Part shown: positions 3 through 20,360 of the stretch, one piece after another
Layout of the letters: each line of letters begins with the position of its first letter
Position numbering within the stretch: the first letter of the stretch is position 1
Virus record (IMG/VR): IMGVR_UViG_3300035208_007474
DNA from: a virus
Reading direction: 5' to 3' (one strand)
Length of the DNA: 27,422 nucleotides
Translations under genes and position numbers: made by a program
Notes under the pieces: generated by a model
The model's input: only the letters and a program-made list of their open reading frames with translations
The model's database searches: none
What the model was told of the DNA's origin: nothing

Positions 3-227
3 ACAATTAAAGATTTGGACAAAGCAAATGCCGATATGCAGGGCGACACCAAAGCTTTGACAATGGCAAAAATTCAGAAACATCATATTGGTGATTTAAC
101 TGTGATTGCCGAAGAAGGTGGAAAACACGCCGATAAAGCTGCTCTGATGTTGTTCTGGTGGCATAATGGAGTTCTTGTGGGCAACCGTGACCTACGGACA
201 ATTTTTGATGAGTTTGATGCACAATAA
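3..227 (+). CDS. 3' end of a gene that runs off the window's left edge (frame open back to position 3, first in-frame start TTG 15); hypothetical protein
   Basis: ORF track 15..227; the frame stays open upstream to the window edge; it is followed directly by an intrinsic terminator. Confidence 0.4.
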   Translation, partial: TIKDLDKANADMQGDTKALTMAKIQKHHIGDLTVIAEEGGKHADKAALMLFWWHNGVLVGNRDLRTIFDEFDAQ

Positions 228-254
228 CAGCGAAGTTGAGTGAGGTCATCGCAT

Positions 255-287
255 AAACGCCAAGGGCAAAACCCTTGGCGTTTTATA
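255..287. terminator. Bidirectional rho-independent terminator (AAACGCCAAGGG-caaaa-CCCTTGGCGTTTT)
   Basis: Perfect 12-bp GC-rich stem with an A-run before and a T-run after; sits between convergent ORFs ending at 227 (+) and 288 (-). Confidence 0.6.
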
Positions 288-581
288 TTAACTTGGTTTT
301 ATATGAATTTTATTTATGTGTTGTAAGAATTCATCGTGGCACATTGAGCCTCGAATGACAGTTGCTTCTAGTAAATCCACGAATTTACTTGGTAGTTTAT
401 AGCGTTCTTTGACGTATGCTTTGGCGTCACGGAGATGGTTGTGGCGGCAAGCCCAAGAAGCAGAAAGTAGTCTATTTTTTAATGATTCATCAATGACACG
501 CATGCAATTTTGGCACGAAGTAATTCCGTTTTCGATTGGTTTGTTTAAGAATTCGCCACAAAAAGGACAAATATCTATCAT
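288..581 (-). CDS. Small zinc-ribbon protein (CPFCG...CQNC)
   Basis: 97 aa; N-terminal MIDICPFCGEF...CQNC four-Cys motif; the start matches the partial ORF at 27377 (M-I-x-x-x-CPFCG). Confidence 0.5.
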   Translation of the reverse strand: MIDICPFCGEFLNKPIENGITSCQNCMRVIDESLKNRLLSASWACRHNHLRDAKAYVKERYKLPSKFVDLLEATVIRGSMCHDEFLQHINKIHIKPS

Positions 582-589
582 TTTTTCCT

Positions 590-1281
590 TTATACTACAT
601 CAATAAAATCATAGTTATTGGCTATGGCCCAATTAGCTATTTGATGAATGTCGTCTAAAATACGTTGTAATGTTTCTTGATTATATCCGTATGCAATGTA
701 AGTGGCTTTTCCTTTTTCTTTAGTAATTGTTGATGGATGGACACCTTTAGAAAAGTCAGTCGAAGCTAGTGTGTTTAATTTTATTAATAAATCATGGATA
801 GGTATTTTGTAAAATCCGTTGTCGCTTTCATGTTGAGAGAGTCCTAGTACGTCACCAAAAATCATTCTTGCGTTGGAGTTTGATAAATTAATATGCGGGG
901 GCATATCAGTTGCCGTACCCATTTCAATATCAATTCTATAGACGGTTCCGCCAAAGGCTTTTGAAATATCTTTTGAGAATTGTCCGTGTTTAGCACCAAA
1001 TTCATCAAGATAGAATTGAATTCCTTTAAGAATATTCGGAATAGCAGAATCAGGTATGCCCTCAGAATAGAAATTAATTGTTCCATTTCGTGAGTTAAAG
1101 TTAGTTGTTCCGTCGATGGTATAACTTCGGGTCGTTTGGCTTGTTTGAATTGGGGAACTCTTCGCAGTTGTCGTTCAATATGAAAAGCTAAGTCCAGTAT
1201 GTTTCGTGGAGGTTCTTCGTAACCTCTGATGGAAACCGTCATTGATTCGTTTAAAGCCATCCATTCACTGAAACTTCGCAT
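590..1281 (-). CDS. Hypothetical protein encoded in two overlapping frames (862..1281 and 590..922, extendable without ATG to ~1174): a frameshifted gene, sequencing indel or pseudogene
   Basis: I translated the downstream frame upstream of its ATG by hand. It stays open from 1174 and reads as a real protein (...YTIDGTTNFNSRNGTINFYSEGIPDSAIPNILKGIQFYLDEFGAKHGQFSKD...), whereas the C-terminal half of the 862..1281 frame is low-complexity L/I/F. The gene diverges from the PNK-like gene. Confidence 0.4.
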
Positions 1282-1298
1282 GTATTATATATGATTAT

Positions 1299-1325
1299 TG
1301 ATTATTGAAAAAATAATTGTATAAT
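1299..1325 (+). promoter_or_regulatory. sigma70-like promoter TTGATT-N15-(TG)TATAAT for the kinase gene
   Basis: TTGATT 1299-1304 and TATAAT 1320-1325 with TG immediately upstream; RBS GAAAGGAAAA before ATG 1345. Confidence 0.4.
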
Positions 1326-1344
1326 GTGTATTTGAAAGGAAAAT

Positions 1345-1815
1345 ATGATTGTCTTATTAGTTGGTTGTATAAGTTCGGGGAAAAGCACTTGGTCTAGGAA
1401 ACGTGCATCTGAAGGTTGGATAACTATTAACGATGATAATATAATAACCTTGTTGCATGGTGGTGATTATACTTTATATAATAAGGCATTAAAACCTTTT
1501 TATAAATCTATTGAATCACACATTCTTCATATGGCAGTAGCAATGGGTCTAAATGTAATAGTTGATAAAGGAGTCAATATTAGCAGGAGAGCCAGAAGTC
1601 GATGGATAGCTCTTGCCAAAAGTTTGGATACACCAATCGAAGCTAGAGTTTTCCCTAAATTTTCCCCCGAAATACATGCCAAAAAAAGATTTGAGTCTGA
1701 CGCTCGTGGTAAGTCATATAAAGATTGGCTAGAAGCTGCTCAAAAGCACGAAAAAGAATATGAAATACCTACTGTGAAAGAAGGATTTACAAGAATAGTC
1801 TCGTCGGACGATTAG
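1345..1815 (+). CDS. Polynucleotide 5'-kinase, kinase domain only (T4 Pnk-like P-loop kinase; no phosphatase domain)
   Basis: LLVGCISSGKSTWSRK matches T4 Pnk LTIGCPGSGKSTWARE; the downstream RRARSRW..ARVF / KKRFESDARGKS blocks are collinear with the T4 Pnk kinase domain. Confidence 0.7.
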   Translation: MIVLLVGCISSGKSTWSRKRASEGWITINDDNIITLLHGGDYTLYNKALKPFYKSIESHILHMAVAMGLNVIVDKGVNISRRARSRWIALAKSLDTPIEARVFPKFSPEIHAKKRFESDARGKSYKDWLEAAQKHEKEYEIPTVKEGFTRIVSSDD

Positions 1816-2735
1816 TATTTATTTTCTTTTAAAAAATGTTGATATGTTTTAGATATACCCTCTTCTAATTCTATCTTATGTTGCCATCCTAGATTATGTA
1901 ATTTTGATAAATCTAATAGTTTTTGAGGCGTTCCGTTTGGTCTAGAGGTATCATATTCTAAGCCGCCAGTGTATCCAACAGTTTTTTTGATTATTTCTGC
2001 AAGCTCTCTTATTGTAACGTCTTTGCCCGTTCCGACATTGATAATATCAGAACTGTTATAAGTATTCATTAAAAATATGGCTGCATCAGCCAAATCATCA
2101 ACATACATAAATTCTCTTTTGGGTTCTCCGTTGCCCCATAAAAGAACAGATGGTTGATTATGAATTTTGGCTTCATGTATTTTTCTGATTAATGCCGGGA
2201 GAACATGAGATTTTTCTAAATCGTAATGGTCATTTTGTCCATAAAGATTTGTAGGCATAAGGCAGATGCCATTAAATCCATATTGCTTTCTATATGCTTG
2301 TATCATTTGAATACCGGCAATTTTAGCGACAGCATAAGACTTATTTGTTTCTTCTAGAGGTCCGGTTAAGAAATATTCCTCTTTAATCGGTTGGGGGCAG
2401 AGACGTGGGTAAATGCAGCTTGACCCCAATAAGAGAATTTTTTTTACATTAGTTTGATAAGCTACGTTTATTACATTTGTTTGTATCATTAAATTATCGT
2501 AAATAAACTCGGCAGGGTAAGTATCGTTAGCCGCAATGCCGCCAACTTTCGCCGCAGCCAAAAATACATAATCGGGTTTTTGATGATTGAAAAACATTTT
2601 AACGGCAGATTCTCTTTTTAAATCAAAACTTGATGTAATGACATCGGTATAACCAGATTTTTTTAGTTGACGGCATATTGAACTTCCAACTAAACCTTGG
2701 CCACCTAAGACCAATATTTTTTCATTTTTGTCCAT
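1812..2735 (-). CDS. fcl: GDP-L-fucose synthase (GDP-4-keto-6-deoxy-D-mannose 3,5-epimerase/4-reductase)
   Basis: 307 aa; N-terminal Rossmann ILVLGGQGLVGSSI, SYAVAKIAG (YxxxK), and Fcl/WcaG/GMER-like conservation along the full length. Confidence 0.9.
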   Translation of the reverse strand: MDKNEKILVLGGQGLVGSSICRQLKKSGYTDVITSSFDLKRESAVKMFFNHQKPDYVFLAAAKVGGIAANDTYPAEFIYDNLMIQTNVINVAYQTNVKKILLLGSSCIYPRLCPQPIKEEYFLTGPLEETNKSYAVAKIAGIQMIQAYRKQYGFNGICLMPTNLYGQNDHYDLEKSHVLPALIRKIHEAKIHNQPSVLLWGNGEPKREFMYVDDLADAAIFLMNTYNSSDIINVGTGKDVTIRELAEIIKKTVGYTGGLEYDTSRPNGTPQKLLDLSKLHNLGWQHKIELEEGISKTYQHFLKENKY

Positions 2736-3729
2736 TTTGTTTGTTGTCCTTTAAAAATTTTTCATCTTTAGCTAACTCAAGGTCATATAGTGTCATATCT
2801 GTTATCAGTTGTTCGAATGTTACCTCTGGTTTCCACCCTAAAATAGTTCTGGCTTTTGTGGAATCTCCTAAAAGAACATCAATTTCGGTAGGTCGATAAT
2901 ATTTGGGGTCTATTATTACGTGGTTTTCCCATTTGAGATTTACGAGTTCAAATGCAATTTTGACAACCTCTTTGATAGAATGTGTTTCTCCTGTGGCAAT
3001 TACGAAATCATCCGGTTGGTTTTGCTGAAGCATAAGCCACATTGCTTTCACATAATCTGTTGCTGCTCCAAAATCTCTTTGAGACTCTAAGTTCCCCAAA
3101 TATACTTTATCTTGTAGTCCACACGCAATTCTAGTTGCCGCTCTTGTTATTTTTCTTATAACAAAAGTTTCTCCACGTCTTCGCCCGCTATGGTTAAAAA
3201 GAATGCCATTTGAAATAAACATATCGTATGCTTCTCTGTAGTTTCTGGCGTACCAGAATGCGGCTAACTTTGAAACACCATAAGGGCTTCTGGGACAAAA
3301 AATCGTGTTTTCATTTTGCGGTGGAGGGGAGTTCCCGAACATTTCGCTAGAAGAAGCTTGATAGACTTTAATTTTTTTGCCCAATATGTTTTGTGCATTT
3401 TTTACGGCTTCGAAAACATTAAATGCCCCTACTCCGGTAACCAATGACGTATAAATTGGAATGTCGAAAGACAATTTGACATGGGATTGTGCGGCTAAGT
3501 TGTAGACTTCATCAGGATTTATTTCAACAATGAGATTTTCTAATGAAGAATAGTCTGAAACATCGCCGTGGTGTAAATTGAGTCTATCGAAGATGTGGTC
3601 TATGCGTCCGGTGTTGAAGGTACTACTTCGTCTAATAATGCCATGAACGGAGTAATCGTTTTCCAACAGCAAATCGGCAAGATGACTTCCGTCCATTCCA
3701 GTTATGCCAGTAATCAATGCTTTTTTCAT
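2722..3729 (-). CDS. gmd: GDP-mannose 4,6-dehydratase
   Basis: 335 aa; ALITGITGMDGSHLADLLL, YGVSKLAAFWYARNYREAY, and Gmd-family conservation throughout; overlaps fcl by 14 nt as an operon. Confidence 0.9.
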   Translation of the reverse strand: MKKALITGITGMDGSHLADLLLENDYSVHGIIRRSSTFNTGRIDHIFDRLNLHHGDVSDYSSLENLIVEINPDEVYNLAAQSHVKLSFDIPIYTSLVTGVGAFNVFEAVKNAQNILGKKIKVYQASSSEMFGNSPPPQNENTIFCPRSPYGVSKLAAFWYARNYREAYDMFISNGILFNHSGRRRGETFVIRKITRAATRIACGLQDKVYLGNLESQRDFGAATDYVKAMWLMLQQNQPDDFVIATGETHSIKEVVKIAFELVNLKWENHVIIDPKYYRPTEIDVLLGDSTKARTILGWKPEVTFEQLITDMTLYDLELAKDEKFLKDNKQNGQK

Positions 3730-3817: not shown

Positions 3818-4462
3818 ATGACATCAGTGGCTCAAAATAAGATGGTTATAGGGTTGGTAGGCGGAATAGCCAGTGGTAAAACTATGATAGCGGAGTATCT
3901 TTCTCGTAAAGGTGCCACTATTTTTAATGCCAGCGTAGAAACCAGAAAAGCCTTAAGCAGTAAGGAAATGGTGGAAATGATTTTCGCTCAGTGGCCAGTT
4001 ATAAAAGCCACGGCGGTTATACAGGGTGTTACGGACATAACGATTTTGAAGAAGGAGCTTGCTAAAATTGTCGAATCTGACGACAACGAGCTTGCCTTTT
4101 TAGAAGGTCTTTTGTTCCCGATTGTTCGTAATCGCATGGAGAAGTTCGTTCATGTTATAAAACAAGGTGTGATTGTTATTGACGCCCCCTTGTTGTTCGA
4201 AATCGCTTGTGAAAAATATTGTAATGAGATTTGGTTCATTAACATGCCGTTGAAAGAGCGTTTTGCTCACTATATCAGACGTTTTGTCGGTGATGATATC
4301 GAAATCATACGCAAGGATTTTAAACTGCGTGAAGCTCGTCGTATGTCACTTCTTGAAAAAATGCGACGGTCAACTTTTCAAATCCCCAATAGAACAGGTC
4401 AGCTTTATACGACGTGGAGGACTGTCGATAAATTTTGGAATAGAATAATTACCAAATTGTGA
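3818..4462 (+). CDS. Dephospho-CoA kinase (CoaE) family P-loop kinase
   Basis: VIGLVGGIASGKTM matches CoaE IGLTGGIGSGKST; LLFPIVR / VVIDAPLLFE / RRFV-IRKD blocks are collinear with CoaE. Substrate assignment is uncertain. Confidence 0.55.
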   Translation: MTSVAQNKMVIGLVGGIASGKTMIAEYLSRKGATIFNASVETRKALSSKEMVEMIFAQWPVIKATAVIQGVTDITILKKELAKIVESDDNELAFLEGLLFPIVRNRMEKFVHVIKQGVIVIDAPLLFEIACEKYCNEIWFINMPLKERFAHYIRRFVGDDIEIIRKDFKLREARRMSLLEKMRRSTFQIPNRTGQLYTTWRTVDKFWNRIITKL

Positions 4463-4465
4463 TAT

Positions 4466-4651
4466 TTATTCGATATTATCTTTATCTGACTTGTCTAGTT
4501 CCGAACGTAAAATCAGTACATTTTCGTTAGCTTCGATGCCTAAACGTACTCTATTGTGGCTATCAATTCTGACTACCGTAATACTGATATCGGGATTCCC
4601 CGGTGTTCTTAAGATAATTTTTTCGTCTTTCTTCCTAGATAGAACTAACAT
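4466..4651 (-). CDS. csrA: Carbon storage regulator CsrA/RsmA homolog (RNA-binding translational regulator)
   Basis: 61 aa; MLVLSRK is identical to the Bacillus CsrA N-terminus and the VRLGIEA..NVLILRSEL core matches CsrA beta-strands; RBS AAGGAG 8 nt upstream; it is the only minus-strand gene in a long plus-strand block. Confidence 0.85.
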   Translation of the reverse strand: MLVLSRKKDEKIILRTPGNPDISITVVRIDSHNRVRLGIEANENVLILRSELDKSDKDNIE

Positions 4652-4732
4652 TTTTAAACTCCTTTATTCATTGATTATAATAGAGTTAGAAGTTAACTAG
4701 TTTTTTGATATAGAGAAAATTTATTTTTCTGG

Positions 4733-4762
4733 TTTTACAACAGACATTGGTTACGTATACTT
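4733..4762 (+). promoter_or_regulatory. sigma70-like promoter TTTACAAC-N-TATACT upstream of the AT-hook gene
   Basis: Member of the recurring TTTACA(AC) -35 family in this window. Confidence 0.4.
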
Positions 4763-4859
4763 TAAGGTGGAAAAGAACCCGGCTATTGTTAGTGGCCCGA
4801 TAGCTAGTAAAAAATAGGTTGAAAATAGGTCGCAGTCAAAAAGTAGAAGGAGTCTGAAC

Positions 4860-5528
4860 ATGAGTAAAGTAACTAATCATCCCCAAGTACTTGTGGCTTT
4901 TGAGGAACAGGCGCAGAAAGCTGTTCAAGAGGCACAGCTTGCTGAAGCCAAAGCAATTCTTTTCCGTTATCGTGCCAGTCTGTGCGAACAAGCTCAGGCA
5001 GTTAGGTCCGACACGGAAAAGATTATGTCCGAAATGACAGCCAAGCGTGAGGACATCGAGAAGCAGATTGTCGATATCGACAACAAAATTGTTGAAGTTG
5101 ACAAAGGTCAGATTCCTGCTAATATGCCAGAATTGACCGTTGCCGCCATGCCAAAACGTGGTCGTCCAGTCGGCGTAAAGGCCAAAAAGGCTGGTCGTCC
5201 TGCAAAGGCCAAAAAGGCTGGTCGTCCTGCAAAGGCCAAAAAGGCTGGTCGTCCTGCGAAAGTAAAGGCGACAAAGCGTGGCCGTCCGCTCCATACTTCC
5301 AGAGCGCATAATGAGCTTCCGTTGCGTCAGGTCGTTACCAACGTCCTGAAGGGAGCCAAGAATGGCCTGAACTTGACCGAATTGGTCGAAGCTATCGTCA
5401 AAACCGGCTATAAGTCGAAGACGAAAGACGATTTCGCAAAAATCGTCTATCAGGCGGTTTACAAGCTCTGCAAAGAAAAAACGGCGACCAAAGAGGCTGC
5501 AACCAAGAAGTATCGTCTCGTCGCTTAA
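4860..5528 (+). CDS. AT-hook / histone H1-H5-like DNA-binding protein (N-terminal coiled coil, 5 GRP AT-hooks, C-terminal linker-histone-like winged helix)
   Basis: KRGRPVGVKAKKAGRPAKAKKAGRPAKAKKAGRPAKVKATKRGRP; the C-terminal LTELVEAIVKTGYKSK...KKYRLV resembles the H1 globular domain. Confidence 0.75.
   Translation: MSKVTNHPQVLVAFEEQAQKAVQEAQLAEAKAILFRYRASLCEQAQAVRSDTEKIMSEMTAKREDIEKQIVDIDNKIVEVDKGQIPANMPELTVAAMPKRGRPVGVKAKKAGRPAKAKKAGRPAKAKKAGRPAKVKATKRGRPLHTSRAHNELPLRQVVTNVLKGAKNGLNLTELVEAIVKTGYKSKTKDDFAKIVYQAVYKLCKEKTATKEAATKKYRLVA
5181..5261 (+). repeat. 3 x 27-nt near-perfect tandem repeat (gccaaaaaggctggtcgtcctgcaaag) encoding AKKAGRPAK x3 inside the AT-hook gene
   Basis: Direct reading of the sequence; the third copy has a single substitution. 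Confidence 0.9.
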
Positions 5529-5553
5529 AACGGAAAACAGGTTTTTCTGTAAT

Positions 5554-5593
5554 GCTCCACTCGTAAAAAAATGCGAGTGGAGCGTTTTTTTTC
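5554..5593 (+). terminator. Rho-independent terminator (GCTCCACTCG-loop-CGAGTGGAGC + T9)
   Basis: 10-bp perfect stem followed by a T-run, 26 nt after the stop at 5528. Confidence 0.7.
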
Positions 5594-5671
5594 TTCCGTT
5601 TTTGAAACACTATACTATACTAATCTAGACCCCGATGCAGTTGGTTCCCCCCGGCCAACTGCTCAAAGAAG

Positions 5672-5707
5672 CCCCGACAGTCTCCCCCCGCTGTTGGGGT
5701 TTTTTTA
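5672..5707 (+). terminator. Second rho-independent terminator (CCCCGACAG-tctccccccg-CTGTTGGGG + T7); may be the 3' end of a small RNA
   Basis: 9-bp stem (one G-U pair) plus a T-run; preceded by a second hairpin (5637-5662) with a similar C-rich loop. Confidence 0.55.
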
Positions 5708-5790
5708 TTGGGAAATTCCAAACACAAAATTGTATGAAAAACGACAAATACTTGATGTTTAAAAGGTTATAAAGAAGTACGCTTTTGTCG

Positions 5791-10809: not shown

Positions 10810-10837
10810 TTGACTTTTGAGCGATATTACTTATAAT
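10810..10837 (+). promoter_or_regulatory. Strong sigma70-like promoter TTGACT-N16-TATAAT, placing the tandem repeat array in the 5' UTR of the methyltransferase gene
   Basis: Hexamers at 10810-10815 and 10832-10837. Confidence 0.55.
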
Positions 10838-10854
10838 TAATTTTAACTTTTACT

Positions 10855-10974
10855 AACTTCCCTTTCAACTTCCTTTTCAACTTCCCTTTCAACTTCCCTT
10901 TCAACTTCCCTTTCAACTTCCCTTTCAACTTCCCTTTCAACTTCCCTTTCAACTTCCCTTTCAACTTCCCTTCC
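10855..10974 (+). repeat. 10 x 12-nt perfect tandem repeat (AACTTCCCTTTC), intergenic or leader
   Basis: Read directly: 8 identical copies, one C->T variant (copy 2) and a degenerate last copy; it ends 9 nt before ATG 10984. Confidence 0.95.
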
Positions 10975-14512: not shown

Positions 14513-14546
14513 GCCTTTGTAACGATTGTTATTTAAGAGAATAGAC

Positions 14547-16142
14547 ATGGGTATTAAACTTGAAAAAAACACGTTTCCAGTAAGCCATGGGGCAGAAGAT
14601 TTCCAGTGTTTCGGTCCTCCTGCCACAAAAGATGGCGTATTTGAAGGGACCATGATTGCTGATTGTGGTTGCTTTACTCAGGATGGGAAAGATTCGAATA
14701 AATATTATCACAGTGCGGTTGTTCAGTCTAAATGTAATCAAAAATGGTACGTTTATTTTGAGTGGGGACGAGTAGGGGCAAATCATCCATCATTTCAATT
14801 TACTGATTGTTCAAATAAGTCTGATGCCGAACATGATTATTGTGACCAGCTTCATCAGAAAAATGATAAGCGTGGCGAATGGATTCAACATCCATCTTTG
14901 GGTAAAATTCTTCGAGCGAAAACAGGAAAAGATTGTTATTTGGTAAGGCCGCAGGCCAAAAGAAGTACCGGCCTTCCAGATGCTAGAACCATTGTTCACA
15001 ATGAAGGTGTTTCTGTTGTTAAAACATCCAAGCCAACTGGCAAGGTTTCGACGGTCAATGTAGACAAAGCCACACTTGAGTTAATGCGGGATTTGAATGT
15101 TGGTACAGTTAATTATACCAGAGCTTCTATGGCTGACGCCGCAATTCCAACTCAAGTAGCTTTGGATGAAGCTCGTTCTATTTTGATTGCAGCACAACAA
15201 CGTGTTTCCAATGTGGGTGATGATGTCGAAGACCAAATCAAAGATACGGAATTGAGGCATTTAACGGCACTGATGTATGGCCGAATTCCTAAGAAGAAAG
15301 ACCGCAACGCCTCACCGGATAAATGGATTCTATCAGCGTCTAATATTGGTACGTGGAACCTAGACATTGATGCATTTGAGTCGGCTTTAAAAACTGCCGA
15401 TATGGGACAAGACCAAGCAGACCCATTTGATGGCATGCGACTTCAGATGCGGCATTTGTCTAAAAAAGGTAACCCAATTGGTGAATTTATTCATGGTTGG
15501 GCACCGAGTGCAACACGTAATATGCATAATTATTTGAAGGAAAAATTGCAAATAATTAATGTATGGGAGATTGAACGTGAAGGTGATGCGGCAAAGATAG
15601 CTAGAGTTCAAGCTGCAATTGCTGCACAAAATTGGAAACCGTCAGAAAGACCGCTGCATCAACCTGCTCGGTCGGACCTTTCTAGAAACATTGCTAAGAT
15701 TTATGCCAGAACTAACACATGTTTACTTTTTCACGGCACACGTACTGTAAATGTGTCGGGTCTGCTGCGTGAATCTTGGCGATTACGTAATAATCTGGTT
15801 GGGGTGCAACTTACCGCTGCTATGTTCGGTCCGGGTGTTTATTGGGCTGATGATTGGAAAAAGAGCGCAGGTTATACCAGCATGTCCGGTGCATATTGGA
15901 CAAAGGGCGGCGGTGGTATTGGTGGTCGTGGTGCATTTATGTTTATAGCTGATGTTGTGCTTGGTGCATCTTATCTTGCCCCAAGAGCAGAAGGTTTTAC
16001 GAAACCACCAAATGGTTATCATTCGGTTTTCGGCAAGGCCAATTTTACAAAGGGTAGTTATGGCGAAATTGCCAATAACGAATTTATTACTTATAACAGC
16101 GACCAGTGTGTGGCCAGATATTTAGTAGAATTCGCTAGGTAA
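14547..16142 (+). CDS. Poly/mono(ADP-ribose) polymerase (PARP) homolog: N-terminal WGR domain, helical region, C-terminal PARP catalytic domain with an H-Y-E triad
   Basis: WYVYFEWGRVG (WGR signature); catalytic LLFHGTRTVNVSGLL (H-G-T), GPGVYWADDWKKSAGY (Tyr), NEFITYNSDQ..YLVEF (Glu, as in PARP1 YNEYIVY); I set the start at ATG 14547 downstream of the promoter. Confidence 0.8.
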   Translation: MGIKLEKNTFPVSHGAEDFQCFGPPATKDGVFEGTMIADCGCFTQDGKDSNKYYHSAVVQSKCNQKWYVYFEWGRVGANHPSFQFTDCSNKSDAEHDYCDQLHQKNDKRGEWIQHPSLGKILRAKTGKDCYLVRPQAKRSTGLPDARTIVHNEGVSVVKTSKPTGKVSTVNVDKATLELMRDLNVGTVNYTRASMADAAIPTQVALDEARSILIAAQQRVSNVGDDVEDQIKDTELRHLTALMYGRIPKKKDRNASPDKWILSASNIGTWNLDIDAFESALKTADMGQDQADPFDGMRLQMRHLSKKGNPIGEFIHGWAPSATRNMHNYLKEKLQIINVWEIEREGDAAKIARVQAAIAAQNWKPSERPLHQPARSDLSRNIAKIYARTNTCLLFHGTRTVNVSGLLRESWRLRNNLVGVQLTAAMFGPGVYWADDWKKSAGYTSMSGAYWTKGGGGIGGRGAFMFIADVVLGASYLAPRAEGFTKPPNGYHSVFGKANFTKGSYGEIANNEFITYNSDQCVARYLVEFAR

Positions 16143-18111: not shown

Positions 18112-18393
18112 ATGAAATATTTTCTTGAGTGTGGTGATATCAGAATTTCAATAAACGGACCAGACGAAAATACAGTAGCTCGTCAGTTGGTAAAGCAGAT
18201 GTTGATGGAACAGGCTGATATGGGTCAAATAGTTATGGTGAGCGAAAAGGATTTTTGTTGTAAACGAAGAAATCCTGTTTTGTTAATAACACAAGGATTA
18301 ATTAATGACATCCAAACCAATACCTTCTCTCCACCGCTTGGATTGTTTAACTCCTTCCGAACGATGGATTCGATTGTGGAAAGCAACATTTGA
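18112..18393 (+). CDS. Hypothetical small protein; overlaps the Nudix gene by 89 nt, so its reality is uncertain
   Basis: ORF-track entry; a hairpin at 18083-18106 lies immediately upstream. Confidence 0.3.
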   Translation: MKYFLECGDIRISINGPDENTVARQLVKQMLMEQADMGQIVMVSEKDFCCKRRNPVLLITQGLINDIQTNTFSPPLGLFNSFRTMDSIVESNI

Positions 18394-18922
18394 TGCTGGA
18401 CGAATATGGACATTCGTTAGCAGAAAAGAAAAACCTGAAATCATAACTGGCATATCTTCTGCCGATGCCGTTGTCATTATTGCTTCTGTCTTGCAGTCGG
18501 GGATTCCAAAATTAGTAACCATTAAAGAATATCGGCCAGCTATTGGGGCGTATGAATATGGATTTCCTGCTGGTCTGATTGACGGTGGTGAAAAGCCCGA
18601 AGATGCCGCAGTAAGGGAACTCAAAGAAGAAACCGGATTGGATACGGTGCATATTTATCAGGTAACCCCGCCGTTGTATTCGTCTTCCGGCCTTACAGAT
18701 GAATCCACTATTTTTGTTTATCTTGAAGCAACGGGTACGCTCTCCGCTCATAATCAGGAAGAAACCGAAAATATTGAACCAATGCTATTAGAGGCAAAAG
18801 ATATTATCAATTTATTAGAGCAGAAGGAAAAATTTGCTGAGGGAAGAATTTCGTGTAAATATTGGCCGATTGCTCAGATGTTTGCTACTACTGGTTTATT
18901 ATGTTCGAGGGAAAAAATATGA
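18305..18922 (+). CDS. Nudix hydrolase, ADP-ribose pyrophosphatase-like
   Basis: Perfect Nudix box GLIDGGEKPEDAAVRELKEETGL (Gx5Ex7REUxEExGU); the N-terminal extension plus the PAG..E core follow the ADPRase/NudF layout; RBS AAGGA 7 nt upstream. Confidence 0.8.
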   Translation: MTSKPIPSLHRLDCLTPSERWIRLWKATFDAGRIWTFVSRKEKPEIITGISSADAVVIIASVLQSGIPKLVTIKEYRPAIGAYEYGFPAGLIDGGEKPEDAAVRELKEETGLDTVHIYQVTPPLYSSSGLTDESTIFVYLEATGTLSAHNQEETENIEPMLLEAKDIINLLEQKEKFAEGRISCKYWPIAQMFATTGLLCSREKI

Positions 18923-19319: not shown

Positions 19320-19367
19320 GTGGGGGAAACTAGTTTACAGGTCATCTCAAAAGGATATAATCTTGAT

Positions 19368-20360
19368 ATGGAAATGAAGGATAAAATCCAAGGTATGTTT
19401 TTAGGCACGTTTATCGGTGATGCGCTCGGTTTTCCTGTAGAGGGCTGGTCTTCCGAACGGATTGCTGAAACATATGGTCGTATCATTAGTTTTGTGAAGC
19501 CTGATAAACATAAGTGGTTCGGTGAAAAAGAAGTTGGTACTCCTACTGACGATTGGCAATTAACAAAAGCTGTTGCCGAATCTTTAATCATTAGTGGAAT
19601 GGATATGGATGCGATAGCTGAAGCACATAAAGCCGCATTCAACGAATCAATTGTTGGATGGGGCGGCACAACCTCTAGTGCTGTCCGAAATTTACTAAAT
19701 GGAGCAACGTGGGAAAAGTCGGGGCTTCCTATTGGGATGGGAAATGGATGTGCCATGAAGATTGCTCCCGTAGCTGCTTTAGTCGCCGCTAAGTATCAAT
19801 CTGGTAAAGTTGTAGATTTTATTGTCAAATTAACCTGCATGACTCATCGTAATGTCTTAGCCGTTTGCACGACTTTGGCTCAAGCAGAAGCAATTTATTA
19901 TTGTTTAACTGCCCAAAAATTTAACGCCATCAAATTTGCTAATCGAATTATTGTCGGCAGTGTGCTGGGGGAATTCTTGAGCGAAGATATTGTTACCGAA
20001 GGTATGACTATTGATTTTCCTGATACCACGCAACGATTGAAGTTGTTGAAGGATTATAAAAAATACGACGACCAGAGAATTATCAAAGAATTTCAGGGAA
20101 CAGCTTACGCATACAATAGCATTCCGTTTTCCTTGATGTTTTTTATCAGAAATCCGAATTCTATTAATGCTATGTACGATGTAATTGCGGCTGGTGGCGA
20201 TACAGATACAAATGCTTCAATGGTTGGCTCACTTTTAGGTGCGTTGAACGGAGTTGACATATTTCCAATGGAATTGGTGAATCAAATGTCTTCAAAGTAT
20301 CGGGACGAAGTGACAGATGTCGCTAATCGTTTTTACAACAAATTTTTTGAGGAAAAATAA
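19368..20360 (+). CDS. ADP-ribosylglycohydrolase (ARH/DraG family)
   Basis: GMFLGTFIGDALGFPVEG, GTPTDDWQLT and AAGGDTDTNASMVGSLLGALNG are the three hallmark ARH metal-binding blocks; I chose ATG 19368 over the GTG at 19320. Confidence 0.85.
   Translation: MEMKDKIQGMFLGTFIGDALGFPVEGWSSERIAETYGRIISFVKPDKHKWFGEKEVGTPTDDWQLTKAVAESLIISGMDMDAIAEAHKAAFNESIVGWGGTTSSAVRNLLNGATWEKSGLPIGMGNGCAMKIAPVAALVAAKYQSGKVVDFIVKLTCMTHRNVLAVCTTLAQAEAIYYCLTAQKFNAIKFANRIIVGSVLGEFLSEDIVTEGMTIDFPDTTQRLKLLKDYKKYDDQRIIKEFQGTAYAYNSIPFSLMFFIRNPNSINAMYDVIAAGGDTDTNASMVGSLLGALNGVDIFPMELVNQMSSKYRDEVTDVANRFYNKFFEEK

What the first reader, a model, noticed from the sequence alone, without database searches (positions are those of the whole stretch)
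4466..4860. Phage-encoded CsrA homolog on the opposite strand, next to a GGA-containing leader
A 61-aa ORF is an unmistakable CsrA/RsmA (MLVLSRK... identical to the Firmicute CsrA N-terminus). It is the lone minus-strand gene in a >20-kb plus-strand block, which is moron-like. A mobile-element CsrA could reprogram host post-transcriptional control (motility, carbon metabolism, biofilm) or titrate host Csr sRNAs. The divergent ~90-nt leader of the adjacent AT-hook gene (TSS predicted ~4770) carries AAGGTGGAAAAG and the SD GAAGGAG, i.e. two GGA motifs spaced like a CsrA dimer site, so the adjacent gene may be a direct target.
Basis: partly seen in the sequence, partly recalled or inferred. Interest (0 to 1): 0.65.

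Follow-up and report, generated by a model that had tools for sequence, protein, structure and literature searches.

The report
Huge-phage variant of the CsrA regulator
The 61-residue gene is a real but divergent member of the CsrA family of RNA-binding translation regulators, and it belongs to a subfamily found almost only in very large bacteriophages, where it is a conserved core-region gene rather than a recent add-on; its proposed control of the neighbouring gene is not supported.

Summary
The ORF at 4466-4651 (-) is a CsrA-family protein: Pfam gives 58 bits against a cutoff of 27, PDB CsrA/RsmE are the top profile hits, and the RNA-contact residues L2, L4, R6, R36, R49 (=R44) and E51 are kept. 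It belongs to a distinct "type A" subfamily with a 4-residue insertion and LRSEL in place of HREEI. Type A occurs in 33 of 80 IMG/VR loci, on contigs up to 533 kb, and in a 595-kb curated phage. Among 80 cellular-genome loci it occurs once, on a contig that looks like misbinned phage.

In these relatives csrA is again a lone reverse-strand gene. It sits near ClpX and is paired divergently with a homolog of the adjacent "AT-hook" gene in 23 of 27 loci. It is therefore not a moron.

They are no more than chance predicts and are not presented in loops.

The strongest regulatory signal is in the relatives' own csrA leaders. A second GGA lies 10-27 nt upstream of the SD in 16 of 27 loci (p=0.002), and a CARGGA core in 8 of 27 versus 5 of 419 control genes (p=6e-8). 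This implies Csr-type feedback. The window's own short leader lacks that site.

Phage CsrAs are already known; this subfamily and its layout appear undescribed.

The parts
4466..4651 (-). csrA 'type A' gene, 61 aa, stop codon included. It is a CsrA-family RNA-binding protein with a 4-residue insertion (R15-T-P-G18 region) in the beta2-beta3 hairpin and one extra residue in the beta3-beta4 turn.
   Evidence: Pfam PF02599 at 58.1 bits. A family profile hits PDB RsmE/RsmA/CsrA first. AF2 pLDDT is 80.6 and the Foldseek top hit is RsmE 2mfc. The alignment keeps L2, L4, R6, G38, A41, R49 and E51.
4659..4665 (-). Shine-Dalgarno AAAGGAG of csrA, 7 nt before the ATG. It is the only GGA in the short 5' leader. 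A second GGA lies inside the coding region at 4635-4633 (codons R6-K7), 27 nt downstream.
   Evidence: Read from the sequence and from the GGA map. The codon-level GGA is not enriched over background: 6 of 27 against about 22%.
4674..4679 (-). TATAAT, a -10-like hexamer for csrA with no recognisable -35. It implies a leader of only about 15 nt. The sequence is palindromic with a plus-strand TATAAT at 4676-4681.
   Evidence: Sequence. The plus-strand match was listed. Relatives have a TTAATA/TATAnT element 35-47 nt before the ATG, preceded by an AAAATTT tract.
4652..4859 (.). 208-bp divergent intergenic region between csrA and the coiled-coil/AT-hook gene. The pairing is conserved in relatives, with spacing of 149-371 bp.
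4734..4761 (+). Promoter-like site TTTACA-16-TATACT for the adjacent gene, with a predicted TSS near 4768.
   Evidence: The same cTTTACAa-N16/17-(c)GTATAnT motif occurs in 19 of the 23 related intergenic regions tested.
4764..4775 (+).
   Evidence: Sequence. It is not in a loop. A GGA recurs 4-17 nt after the -10 in 8 of 19 relatives against 23% of controls, p = 0.09.
4846..4852 (+). SD GAAGGAG of the adjacent gene, with GGA at 4849-4851, 80 nt from the upstream GGA.
4860..5528 (+). Conserved divergent partner gene, 222 aa. It has an N-terminal long helix (8-81), a disordered basic linker with 2 RGRP and 3 AGRP motifs (a 27-nt tandem repeat), and a C-terminal three-helix HTH-like domain. It is a putative DNA-binding protein.
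   Evidence: Weak Pfam HARE-HTH match. Homologs sit in the same position in 23 of 27 loci. Family alignment A4, AF2 model, TRF.
5551..5596 (+). Strong intrinsic terminator (15-bp stem plus a T run) ending the partner gene's transcript.

Best explanation
The gene encodes a functional, divergent CsrA-family RNA-binding protein ('type A') that is a conserved component of a clade of huge bacteriophages. By inference it forms the usual intertwined dimer, binds GGA-containing RNA at or near ribosome-binding sites, and so represses (or in some cases stabilises) target mRNAs.

It is transcribed from its own promoter, antisense to the surrounding gene block. It converges on the downstream gene with no room for a terminator. 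Its expression is therefore probably timed separately from, and possibly antagonised by, transcription of that block.

In most relatives its own mRNA carries a SELEX-like CAAGGA or another GGA 10-27 nt upstream of the SD GGA. This is the classic two-site architecture for translational feedback by a CsrA dimer. The binding protein could be type A itself, the canonical second phage paralog, or host CsrA. In this window the leader is truncated to the SD site alone, so feedback would be weaker or would use SD plus the +16 GGA.

Shown: family membership, residue conservation, virus-specific subfamily, synteny, and motif enrichment. Inferred: RNA binding, dimerisation, repression, timing, and the (unknown) host or phage targets.
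For: Family membership and residues:
- Pfam CsrA at 58 bits.
- Profile-to-PDB hits are all CsrA/RsmE/RsmA, E 4.5e-7 to 7e-6 over the full length.
- The AF2 model has pLDDT 80.6 with beta-strands plus a C-terminal helix, and its best PDB match is RsmE (prob 0.98, TM 0.57).
- Residues that contact RNA in RsmE or are essential in E. coli are kept: L2, L4, S5 (for T5, as in B. subtilis), R6, R36 (=R31), R49 (=R44), E51 (=E46) (PMC7652899; PMC4005645).

Selection and distribution:
- 60-77% identity among relatives whose neighbouring proteins are only 28-56% identical.
- The type-A score distribution is bimodal: 33 of 80 IMG/VR loci against 1 of 80 genome loci.
- Synteny with ClpX, GGACT, AAA_33 kinase and a RING-like gene, and with LR756511.1.
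- Conserved reverse orientation.

Feedback sites:
- A second GGA in 16 of 27 csrA leaders against 125 of 419 control genes, p = 0.0024.
- CA[AG]GGA in 8 of 27 against 5 of 419, p = 6e-8, and still p = 5e-6 after collapsing to 6 lineages.
- The two-site pattern recurs before no other gene family.
- It is not enriched before the canonical paralog (3 of 14).
Against: - There is no experimental evidence for RNA binding.
- NCBIfam CsrA equivalog models score only 39-45 bits, below cutoffs of 70-106.
- A single-sequence search does not reach PDB CsrA.
- Positions next to the key Arg differ from the canonical sequence (H43->L, E45->S, P37->N), and the beta2-beta3 hairpin is 4 residues longer. Specificity or partners may therefore differ.
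- The window's own leader lacks the upstream GGA that supports feedback in relatives.
- No sponge RNA or FliW-like antagonist was found.
- No phage structural genes lie in the window itself, and the host is unknown.
Confidence: 0.6

Rival explanations
1. One reading: the phage CsrA directly controls the divergently transcribed AT-hook gene by bridging two GGA sites in its ~90-nt leader.
For: The gene pair is conserved in 23 of 27 relatives, so a functional link is plausible. The SD is AAGGAG, which fits the A-N-GGA form. A GGA near the predicted 5' end recurs in 8 of 19 relatives. CsrA binding at an extreme 5' end is known to stabilise flhDC mRNA in E. coli (my own knowledge).
Against: The sites are 80 nt apart, beyond the 10-63 nt range. 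The GGA count equals the chance expectation. The fold has z = +0.26 and the GGAs are not in loops. The upstream site is UGGA, not A-N-GGA. In relatives only 14 of 23 have an SD GGA and 6 of 23 have a second GGA within 80 nt. The 5'-proximal GGA enrichment has p = 0.09.
Confidence: 0.12
2. Type A is a diverged paralog that no longer acts as a GGA-binding repressor. Instead it modulates a canonical CsrA (the phage's type B copy or the host's), for example by forming heterodimers with one altered RNA-binding face. It would then act as an anti-CsrA or a specificity switch.
For: At least 15 of 29 related loci carry a canonical CsrA paralog within 10 kb, on the opposite strand to type A. Type A has the insertion and changes at H43, E45 and P37, and it falls below the equivalog cutoffs. 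The GGA sites in type A leaders could be operators for the canonical paralog rather than for type A itself.
Against: All residues known to contact RNA are retained and are invariant across 76 subfamily members. This argues for continued RNA binding. The window has no second paralog in 27 kb. Presence of the upstream GGA does not track presence of a nearby type B copy.
Confidence: 0.15
3. It is a moron, i.e. a recently captured host csrA used for lysogenic conversion or host reprogramming.
For: It lies on the opposite strand with its own promoter-like -10. Phage- and plasmid-borne CsrA genes acquired from hosts are documented (PMC8450108; PMC7366521).
Against: Position, orientation and neighbours are conserved in more than 30 divergent huge-phage loci. 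The subfamily is absent from cellular genomes apart from one syntenic, probably misbinned contig; the best cellular hits are 44-62% identical and lack the insertion. Local GC (0.38) is the same as in the window as a whole.
Confidence: 0.05
4. The contig is not viral but part of a bacterial chromosome or megaplasmid, so this is an ordinary cellular csrA paralog.
For: The window has no capsid, portal or terminase genes. It carries housekeeping-like genes: GDP-mannose dehydratase, CoaE, ClpX and thioredoxin. There was no megablast hit to GenBank phages.
Against: The closest relatives of csrA and of the syntenic block are IMG/VR contigs of 23-533 kb and LR756511.1, a 595-kb record deposited as an uncultured phage. 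Phage-typical genes are present: Mor-type activator, RNA ligase, Dam and PHROG matches. In 185,579 species genomes only one contig matches at the type-A level.
Confidence: 0.07

Closest known systems
Canonical CsrA/RsmA/RsmE (E. coli CsrA, P. fluorescens RsmE, B. subtilis CsrA)
   Same: Same Pfam family and size (~60 aa) and the same predicted beta-strands plus C-terminal helix. It has the identical MLVLSRK/MLILTR N-terminal strand and keeps L4, R6, R31, R44 and E46 equivalents. Relatives carry SD-overlapping plus upstream GGA sites in their own leader, as in E. coli csrA autoregulation.
   Different: Identity is 27-36%. There is a 4-residue insertion that lengthens the beta2-beta3 hairpin and one extra residue in the beta3-beta4 turn. 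LRSEL replaces HREE(I/V)Y, and the GxxAP motif becomes GIEAN. It scores below the NCBIfam equivalog cutoffs. It is encoded by a virus, and no CsrB-like sRNA or FliW was seen nearby.
Previously surveyed phage- and plasmid-borne CsrA/RsmA homologs (Campa et al. 2021, PMC8450108; Sobrero & Valverde 2020, PMC7366521; e.g. Burkholderia Bcep22-like/DC1 and P. aeruginosa F116/RsmM-type phages)
   Same: It is a CsrA-family gene on a phage genome, with the proposed role of manipulating post-transcriptional control during infection. No biochemical characterisation exists in either case.
   Different: Those homologs are described as highly similar to host CsrA and as repeatedly acquired from bacteria. 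This subfamily is instead virus-specific, carries an insertion, is conserved in position and orientation in huge phages, and often co-occurs with a second, canonical paralog. No paper in the searchable library links CsrA to huge or jumbo phages.
Planctomycetota chromosomal CsrA (e.g. Roseiconus nitratireducens, L006)
   Same: These are the closest cellular sequences, at 44-62% identity. They share MLVLSRK, the T-V-V-R-I-D motif and an (I/V)LRxEL beta5-to-helix junction.
   Different: They lack both insertions, score 40-65 bits on the type-A profile against 89 bits or more, and often have long C-terminal tails.
Bacteriophage T4 RegA (functional analogy only; my own knowledge)
   Same: It is a small phage-encoded translational repressor that binds near ribosome-binding sites of several mRNAs, including its own.
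   Different: There is no sequence or fold relationship. RegA's targets and timing are known, whereas nothing is known here.
Reverse-strand ribosomal protein bS21 gene in huge freshwater phages (PMC9723584, abstract seen)
   Same: It is a translation-related gene placed on the reverse strand inside a conserved co-directional block of large phage genomes.
   Different: It is a different protein in a different block, and no link to this clade was tested.

Membership tests
CsrA/RsmA family (Pfam PF02599) | Sequence match to the family model above the curated threshold | tested here: met
   58.1 bits against a gathering cutoff of 27, E 8.5e-16, residues 1-54 on model positions 1-49 of 53. PHROG 'CsrA-like regulator' at E 7e-8.
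CsrA/RsmA family (Pfam PF02599) | Equivalence to canonical CsrA (NCBIfam/TIGRFAM equivalog models) | tested here: not met
   Scores were 45.4, 44.8 and 39.0 bits against cutoffs of 106, 70.1 and 73. It is a family member but not an equivalog.
CsrA/RsmA family (Pfam PF02599) | Residues essential for RNA binding (L4 and R44, plus contacts T5, R6, R31, E46) | tested here: met
   L4, S5, R6, R36, R49 and E51 align to these positions. L2, L4, R6, R49 and E51 are invariant across canonical and phage sequences. Residue roles are taken from PMC7652899 and PMC4005645.
CsrA/RsmA family (Pfam PF02599) | Fold: five beta-strands plus a C-terminal helix, forming an intertwined homodimer | tested here: inconclusive
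   The monomer AF2 model has pLDDT 80.6, three assigned strands plus helix 50-58. Beta1 and beta5 are unassigned, as expected without the partner chain. The Foldseek top PDB hit is RsmE 2mfc_A (prob 0.98, TM 0.57) but with E 0.14. The dimer was not modelled.
CsrA/RsmA family (Pfam PF02599) | Binding of GGA motifs in RNA, typically SD-overlapping plus an upstream site | not testable with these tools
   The only evidence is indirect: GGA and CARGGA sites are enriched 10-27 nt upstream of the SD in the leaders of type-A csrA genes in relatives.
CsrA/RsmA family (Pfam PF02599) | A cognate antagonist (multi-GGA sponge sRNA such as CsrB/RsmZ, or FliW) | tested here: not met
   No Rfam family matched in the window. 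No FliW domain appeared among the ORFs scanned or in the gene calls of L166-L168. The only GGA-dense non-coding stretch (10855-10972, minus strand) lies in a plus-strand 5'UTR and has no minus-strand promoter upstream.
Phage moron | An accessory gene variably present among related phages and inserted between conserved genes, often with deviant composition | tested here: not met
   It is present, in the same orientation and context, in all type-A loci examined. GC is 0.38, as in the flanks.
Huge (jumbo) phage genome fragment | Homology and synteny with recognised huge-phage genomes | tested here: met
   Seven window proteins map in conserved order to LR756511.1, a 595-kb uncultured phage. Four to seven window proteins map to IMG/VR contigs of up to 533 kb.
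Huge (jumbo) phage genome fragment | Virion hallmark genes (capsid, portal, terminase) on the same molecule | tested here: not met
   None was found among the window ORFs scanned with Pfam and PHROGs. The window is a complete 27-kb contig, so the rest of the genome is unseen.

The most novel reading that the evidence does not exclude
Huge phages of this clade may run their own two-protein Csr circuit. It would consist of a canonical CsrA and a virus-specific, insertion-bearing 'type A' CsrA. The type A mRNA is gated by a high-affinity CAAGGA+SD operator, and its gene is wired antisense into the early or middle gene block next to a conserved DNA-binding partner. Together these would form a phage-encoded post-transcriptional timer that switches translation between host and phage (or early and late) mRNA pools. 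In this window the 10-copy GGGAAGUUGAAA array at 10855-10972 could, if transcribed on the minus strand, be a phage sponge for it.
Probability: 0.12. Interest if true: 0.75.

Novelty: new variant of a known kind. Interest (0 to 1): 0.45.

Why it matters
CsrA is one of the best-studied global post-transcriptional regulators, and phage copies have so far been treated as stolen host genes. This case is different: a distinct subfamily appears to have evolved within huge phages, with fixed gene placement, a conserved DNA-binding partner, frequent pairing with a canonical paralog, and Csr-type operator sites on its own mRNA. If the protein binds GGA RNAs, it adds a translation-repression layer to the known huge-phage toolkit for taking over host translation (tRNAs, initiation factors, ribosomal proteins). 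The insertion variant would also be a natural experiment on CsrA specificity. If only the ordinary reading holds, this is one more phage-borne CsrA homolog of unknown target.

Tried and rejected
- Rfam and tRNA scans of the window found nothing.
- Megablast of 25 kb against GenBank phages found no match.
- Codon-level selection for a GGA at codons R6-K7 of csrA: 6 of 27 against about 22% background, so no signal.
- Two-site CARGGA...GGA...ATG pattern before other genes in 27 related loci: only scattered hits, mostly spurious ORFs, with no recurrent target family.
- GGA enrichment in the partner gene's leader across relatives is not significant.
- Search for GGA-dense sponge-like regions near csrA in relatives found only acidic-repeat coding regions.
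- The window's 12-nt array has no exact match in IMG/VR and sits downstream of a near-consensus plus-strand promoter. The sponge reading was therefore set aside.
- The C-rich double hairpin at 5630-5706 was not found in the equivalent intergenic regions of six relatives.
- A single-sequence PDB search gave designed double-psi beta-barrel proteins rather than CsrA. I considered an AbrB/DPBB-like reading and rejected it, because the family profile ranks eleven CsrA/Rsm structures first.
- Host inference from ClpX homologs was uninformative: about 50% identity to everything.
- The partner protein could not be assigned to a family: only weak HARE-HTH/PadR hits and no PDB sequence match beyond coiled coils.
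Full report
**What is at the coordinates**

The minus-strand ORF at 4466-4651 encodes MLVLSRKKDEKIILRTPGNPDISITVVRIDSHNRVRLGIEANENVLILRSELDKSDKDNIE. An SD, AAAGGAG, lies 7 nt upstream. The ORF matches Pfam CsrA at 58.1 bits against a cutoff of 27 and a PHROG 'CsrA-like regulator'.

From 3818 to the end of the window every credible gene is on the plus strand except this one. Six minus-strand genes lie just upstream (7-3729), so the gene sits beside a strand switch. It converges on the CoaE gene with a 3-nt gap.

The window has no tRNA and no Rfam match. Its other genes are as follows:
- GDP-mannose dehydratase and an epimerase
- CoaE
- ClpX
- a GGACT-family protein
- thioredoxin
- RNA ligase
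- Dam methylase
- a Mor-type activator
- a PARP with a WGR domain
- a NUDIX protein
- ADP-ribosylglycohydrolase
- an 846-aa major-vault-protein-like protein

**Is it really CsrA?**

The invariant columns include L2, L4, R6, G38, A41, R49 and E51.

R49 aligns to E. coli R44, and L4 aligns to L4. A review names these two residues as critical for RNA binding (PMC7652899). The side chains that contact RNA in RsmE complexes are T5, R6, Q29, R31, R44 and E46 (PMC4005645). Here they correspond to S5, R6, R34, R36, R49 and E51.

A single-sequence search of PDB sequences missed CsrA and instead gave weak hits to designed double-psi barrels. A profile of 14 subfamily members ranked RsmE, RsmA, CsrA and RsmN/F structures first, aligned end to end, at E 4.5e-7 to 1e-4. 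An AlphaFold2 model built from 76 sequences has pLDDT 80.6, with strands at 10-16, 19-29 and 34-40 and a helix at 50-58. Its best Foldseek match in the PDB is RsmE (prob 0.98, TM 0.57, E 0.14).

NCBIfam equivalog models score only 39-45 bits, below their cutoffs. The protein is therefore a divergent family member and not an equivalog.

**A virus-specific subfamily**

The closest proteins in a 5.8-billion-sequence collection are 59-77% identical. All share a 4-residue insertion (R-x-P-G) after beta2, an extra residue in the VRIDNxN turn, and LRSEL where canonical proteins have HREE(I/V)Y.

A scan of one genome per species (185,579 species) gave a best hit of 64%. That hit is on a 13.7-kb contig labelled as a Neisseriaceae MAG. 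The contig carries the same ClpX, AAA_33 and RING-like neighbours, so it is probably misbinned phage. All other hits were 44-62%, mostly from Planctomycetota, and lacked the insertions.

The same scan of IMG/VR gave 33 loci at 56-71%, on contigs of 10-533 kb. Scoring all CsrA-like ORFs in these loci with the subfamily profile gives a clean split. Scores of 89 bits or more occur in 33 of 80 viral loci and in 1 of 80 genome loci. Everything else scores 74 bits or less.

The only hit in GenBank phages is LR756511.1, a 595-kb 'uncultured phage'. This record also carries homologs of the window's PARP, the 9322 ORF, GGACT, ClpX, the AAA_33 kinase and the RING-like protein around its csrA.

**Conserved context, so not a moron**

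In about 30 related loci csrA lies 1-5 kb from a ClpX and GGACT pair on the opposite strand, next to a homolog of the window's 288-581 ORF. Independent gene calls on three long contigs show csrA as the single reversed gene in runs of up to 18 kb. The downstream convergent gene overlaps or abuts its 3' end. A crude ORF-based count gives 20 of 30 loci with opposite-strand genes on both sides, and several of the exceptions are artefacts of ORF picking.

CsrA is the best-conserved protein in the block: 60-71% identical, against 48-56% for ClpX and 28-40% for the rest. Local GC matches the flanks.

The adjacent 'AT-hook' gene is a positional ortholog in 23 of 27 loci, starting 149-371 bp from csrA. 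The family shares three features:
- an N-terminal coiled coil
- a variable basic linker, with RGRP motifs in about 8 of 20 members
- a conserved C-terminal three-helix domain with weak HARE-HTH/PadR similarity

Its promoter, cTTTACAa-N16/17-(c)GTATAnT, is conserved.

The two GGAs in the partner leader are at 4769-4771 and 4849-4851, which is 80 nt apart. A CsrA dimer bridges sites 10-63 nt apart, with an optimum near 18 nt. At the plus-strand density of 1.43 GGA per 100 nt, the chance of at least one extra GGA in the leader is about 0.72.

The leader fold is no better than shuffled sequence (z = +0.26), and neither GGA is in a loop. Among relatives, 14 of 23 have an SD GGA and 6 have another within 80 nt. 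A GGA close to the predicted 5' end recurs in 8 of 19, against 23% of promoter-like controls (p = 0.09). The specific two-site claim is therefore unsupported. A weak single-site or 5'-end interaction cannot be excluded.

**What the comparison does show**

Sixteen of 27 distinct type-A csrA leaders carry a second GGA 10-27 nt upstream of the SD GGA. Among other genes with an SD GGA the figure is 125 of 419 (p = 0.0024).

Eight of the 27 carry CA[AG]GGA, the core of the SELEX consensus RUACARGGAUGU, against 5 of 419 controls (p = 6e-8). The leaders are otherwise diverged to about 50-68% identity. Collapsing them to six lineages still gives p = 5e-6.

The full two-site pattern recurs before no other gene family. 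It is also not enriched before the canonical paralog (3 of 14). In L092 and L101 the CAAGGA sits in the loop of a 6-bp hairpin; elsewhere it is mostly unpaired.

This is the architecture by which E. coli CsrA represses its own translation. The window's gene is an exception. A TATAAT lies 22 nt before the ATG, leaving only the SD site, plus a GGA at +16 that is not above codon-usage expectation.

**A second paralog**

At least 15 of 29 related loci encode a canonical CsrA within 10 kb of type A (…GDxVxVVEIRGDKVRLGIEAPKEVPVHRxEVY…). It is co-directional with the main block. The window has none in its 27 kb. This leaves open whether the operator sites are read by type A, by type B, or by host CsrA. 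It also motivates the rival in which type A modulates a canonical CsrA.

**What is already known**

Phage- and plasmid-borne CsrA/RsmA genes have been catalogued and proposed to manipulate the host, including repression of CRISPR-Cas (PMC8450108 and PMC7366521). Those homologs are described as host-like and repeatedly acquired. No paper in the searchable library connects CsrA with huge or jumbo phages. The main text of the 2020 huge-phage survey does not mention it.

**Verdict**

'Phage-encoded' is well supported by synteny, although the window itself has no virion genes. 'Moron-like' and 'adjacent leader is a two-site target' are not supported.

The best reading is a conserved, virus-specific CsrA variant that acts as a translational regulator under Csr-type feedback in most relatives. 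Its targets are unknown. Novelty is moderate: a new variant of a known kind.

Noticed in passing
window 5597-5710 (+): Between the partner gene's terminator and the ClpX promoter-like site lie two perfect hairpins with C-rich loops: GCAGUUGG-uuccccccgg-CCAACUGC, and CCCCGACAG-ucucccccc-GCUGUUGGGG followed by U7. This looks like a small RNA with anti-SD-like loops. It has no Rfam match, and some gene callers place a 63-aa ORF there. It was not found in the equivalent regions of six relatives.
   Followed up: partly
window 10855-10972: A perfect 12-nt tandem repeat of 9.8 copies. It reads AACTTCCCTTTC on the plus strand and GGGAAGTTGAAA on the minus strand, giving 11 GGA in 150 nt against a mean of 1.4. 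It lies in the 5'UTR of the Dam methylase gene, downstream of a near-consensus TTGACT-16-TATAAT promoter (10810-10837), and dam has no SD. If transcribed on the minus strand it would resemble a CsrA sponge, but no promoter supports that. There is no exact match in IMG/VR.
   Followed up: partly
window 5177-5262; L001 3496-4137: A 27-nt tandem repeat encodes KAKKAGRPA three times in the partner protein. A near-identical metagenome contig encodes a 213-aa version with one unit fewer, so the repeat number varies in nature.
   Followed up: partly
L167 15466-15645 (-), L168 17216-17398 (-), and 13 other related loci: Many huge-phage relatives carry a second, canonical CsrA paralog within 10 kb of the insertion-type copy and on the opposite strand to it.
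   Followed up: partly
window 14526-16142, 18305-18922, 19320-20360, 23342-25882, 288-581: A cluster of eukaryote-like or ADP-ribose-related genes: PARP catalytic domain with WGR, NUDIX, ADP-ribosylglycohydrolase, an 846-aa protein with major-vault-protein shoulder and repeat domains, and a small RING-like zinc-finger protein that is conserved next to csrA in relatives.
   Followed up: no
window 4460-4468; L166 10174-10192; L167 10167-10189: csrA converges on the downstream gene with a 3-nt gap in the window and a 19-23 nt overlap in relatives. This leaves no room for terminators, so antisense overlap of the two transcripts is likely.
   Followed up: no
L005 (RXKI01000134.1, 'Neisseriaceae bacterium' MAG, 13.7 kb): This is the only genome-collection contig with a type-A csrA. 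It also carries the phage-type ClpX, AAA_33 kinase and RING-like neighbours, so it is probably a huge-phage fragment binned into a bacterial MAG.
   Followed up: partly
L137 intergenic region upstream of the partner gene: There are three tandem copies of the conserved promoter motif (cTTTACAa-N16-cGTATAGT), each about 60-70 bp apart, ahead of the partner gene.
   Followed up: no
window 4469-4651 (protein): A single-sequence search of PDB sequences matched designed symmetric double-psi beta-barrel proteins through the motif (I/V)VR(I/M)D..xRxRLG(I/V) rather than CsrA structures. This is a curious local resemblance between the CsrA beta3-beta4 hairpin and cradle-loop barrel halves.
   Followed up: no
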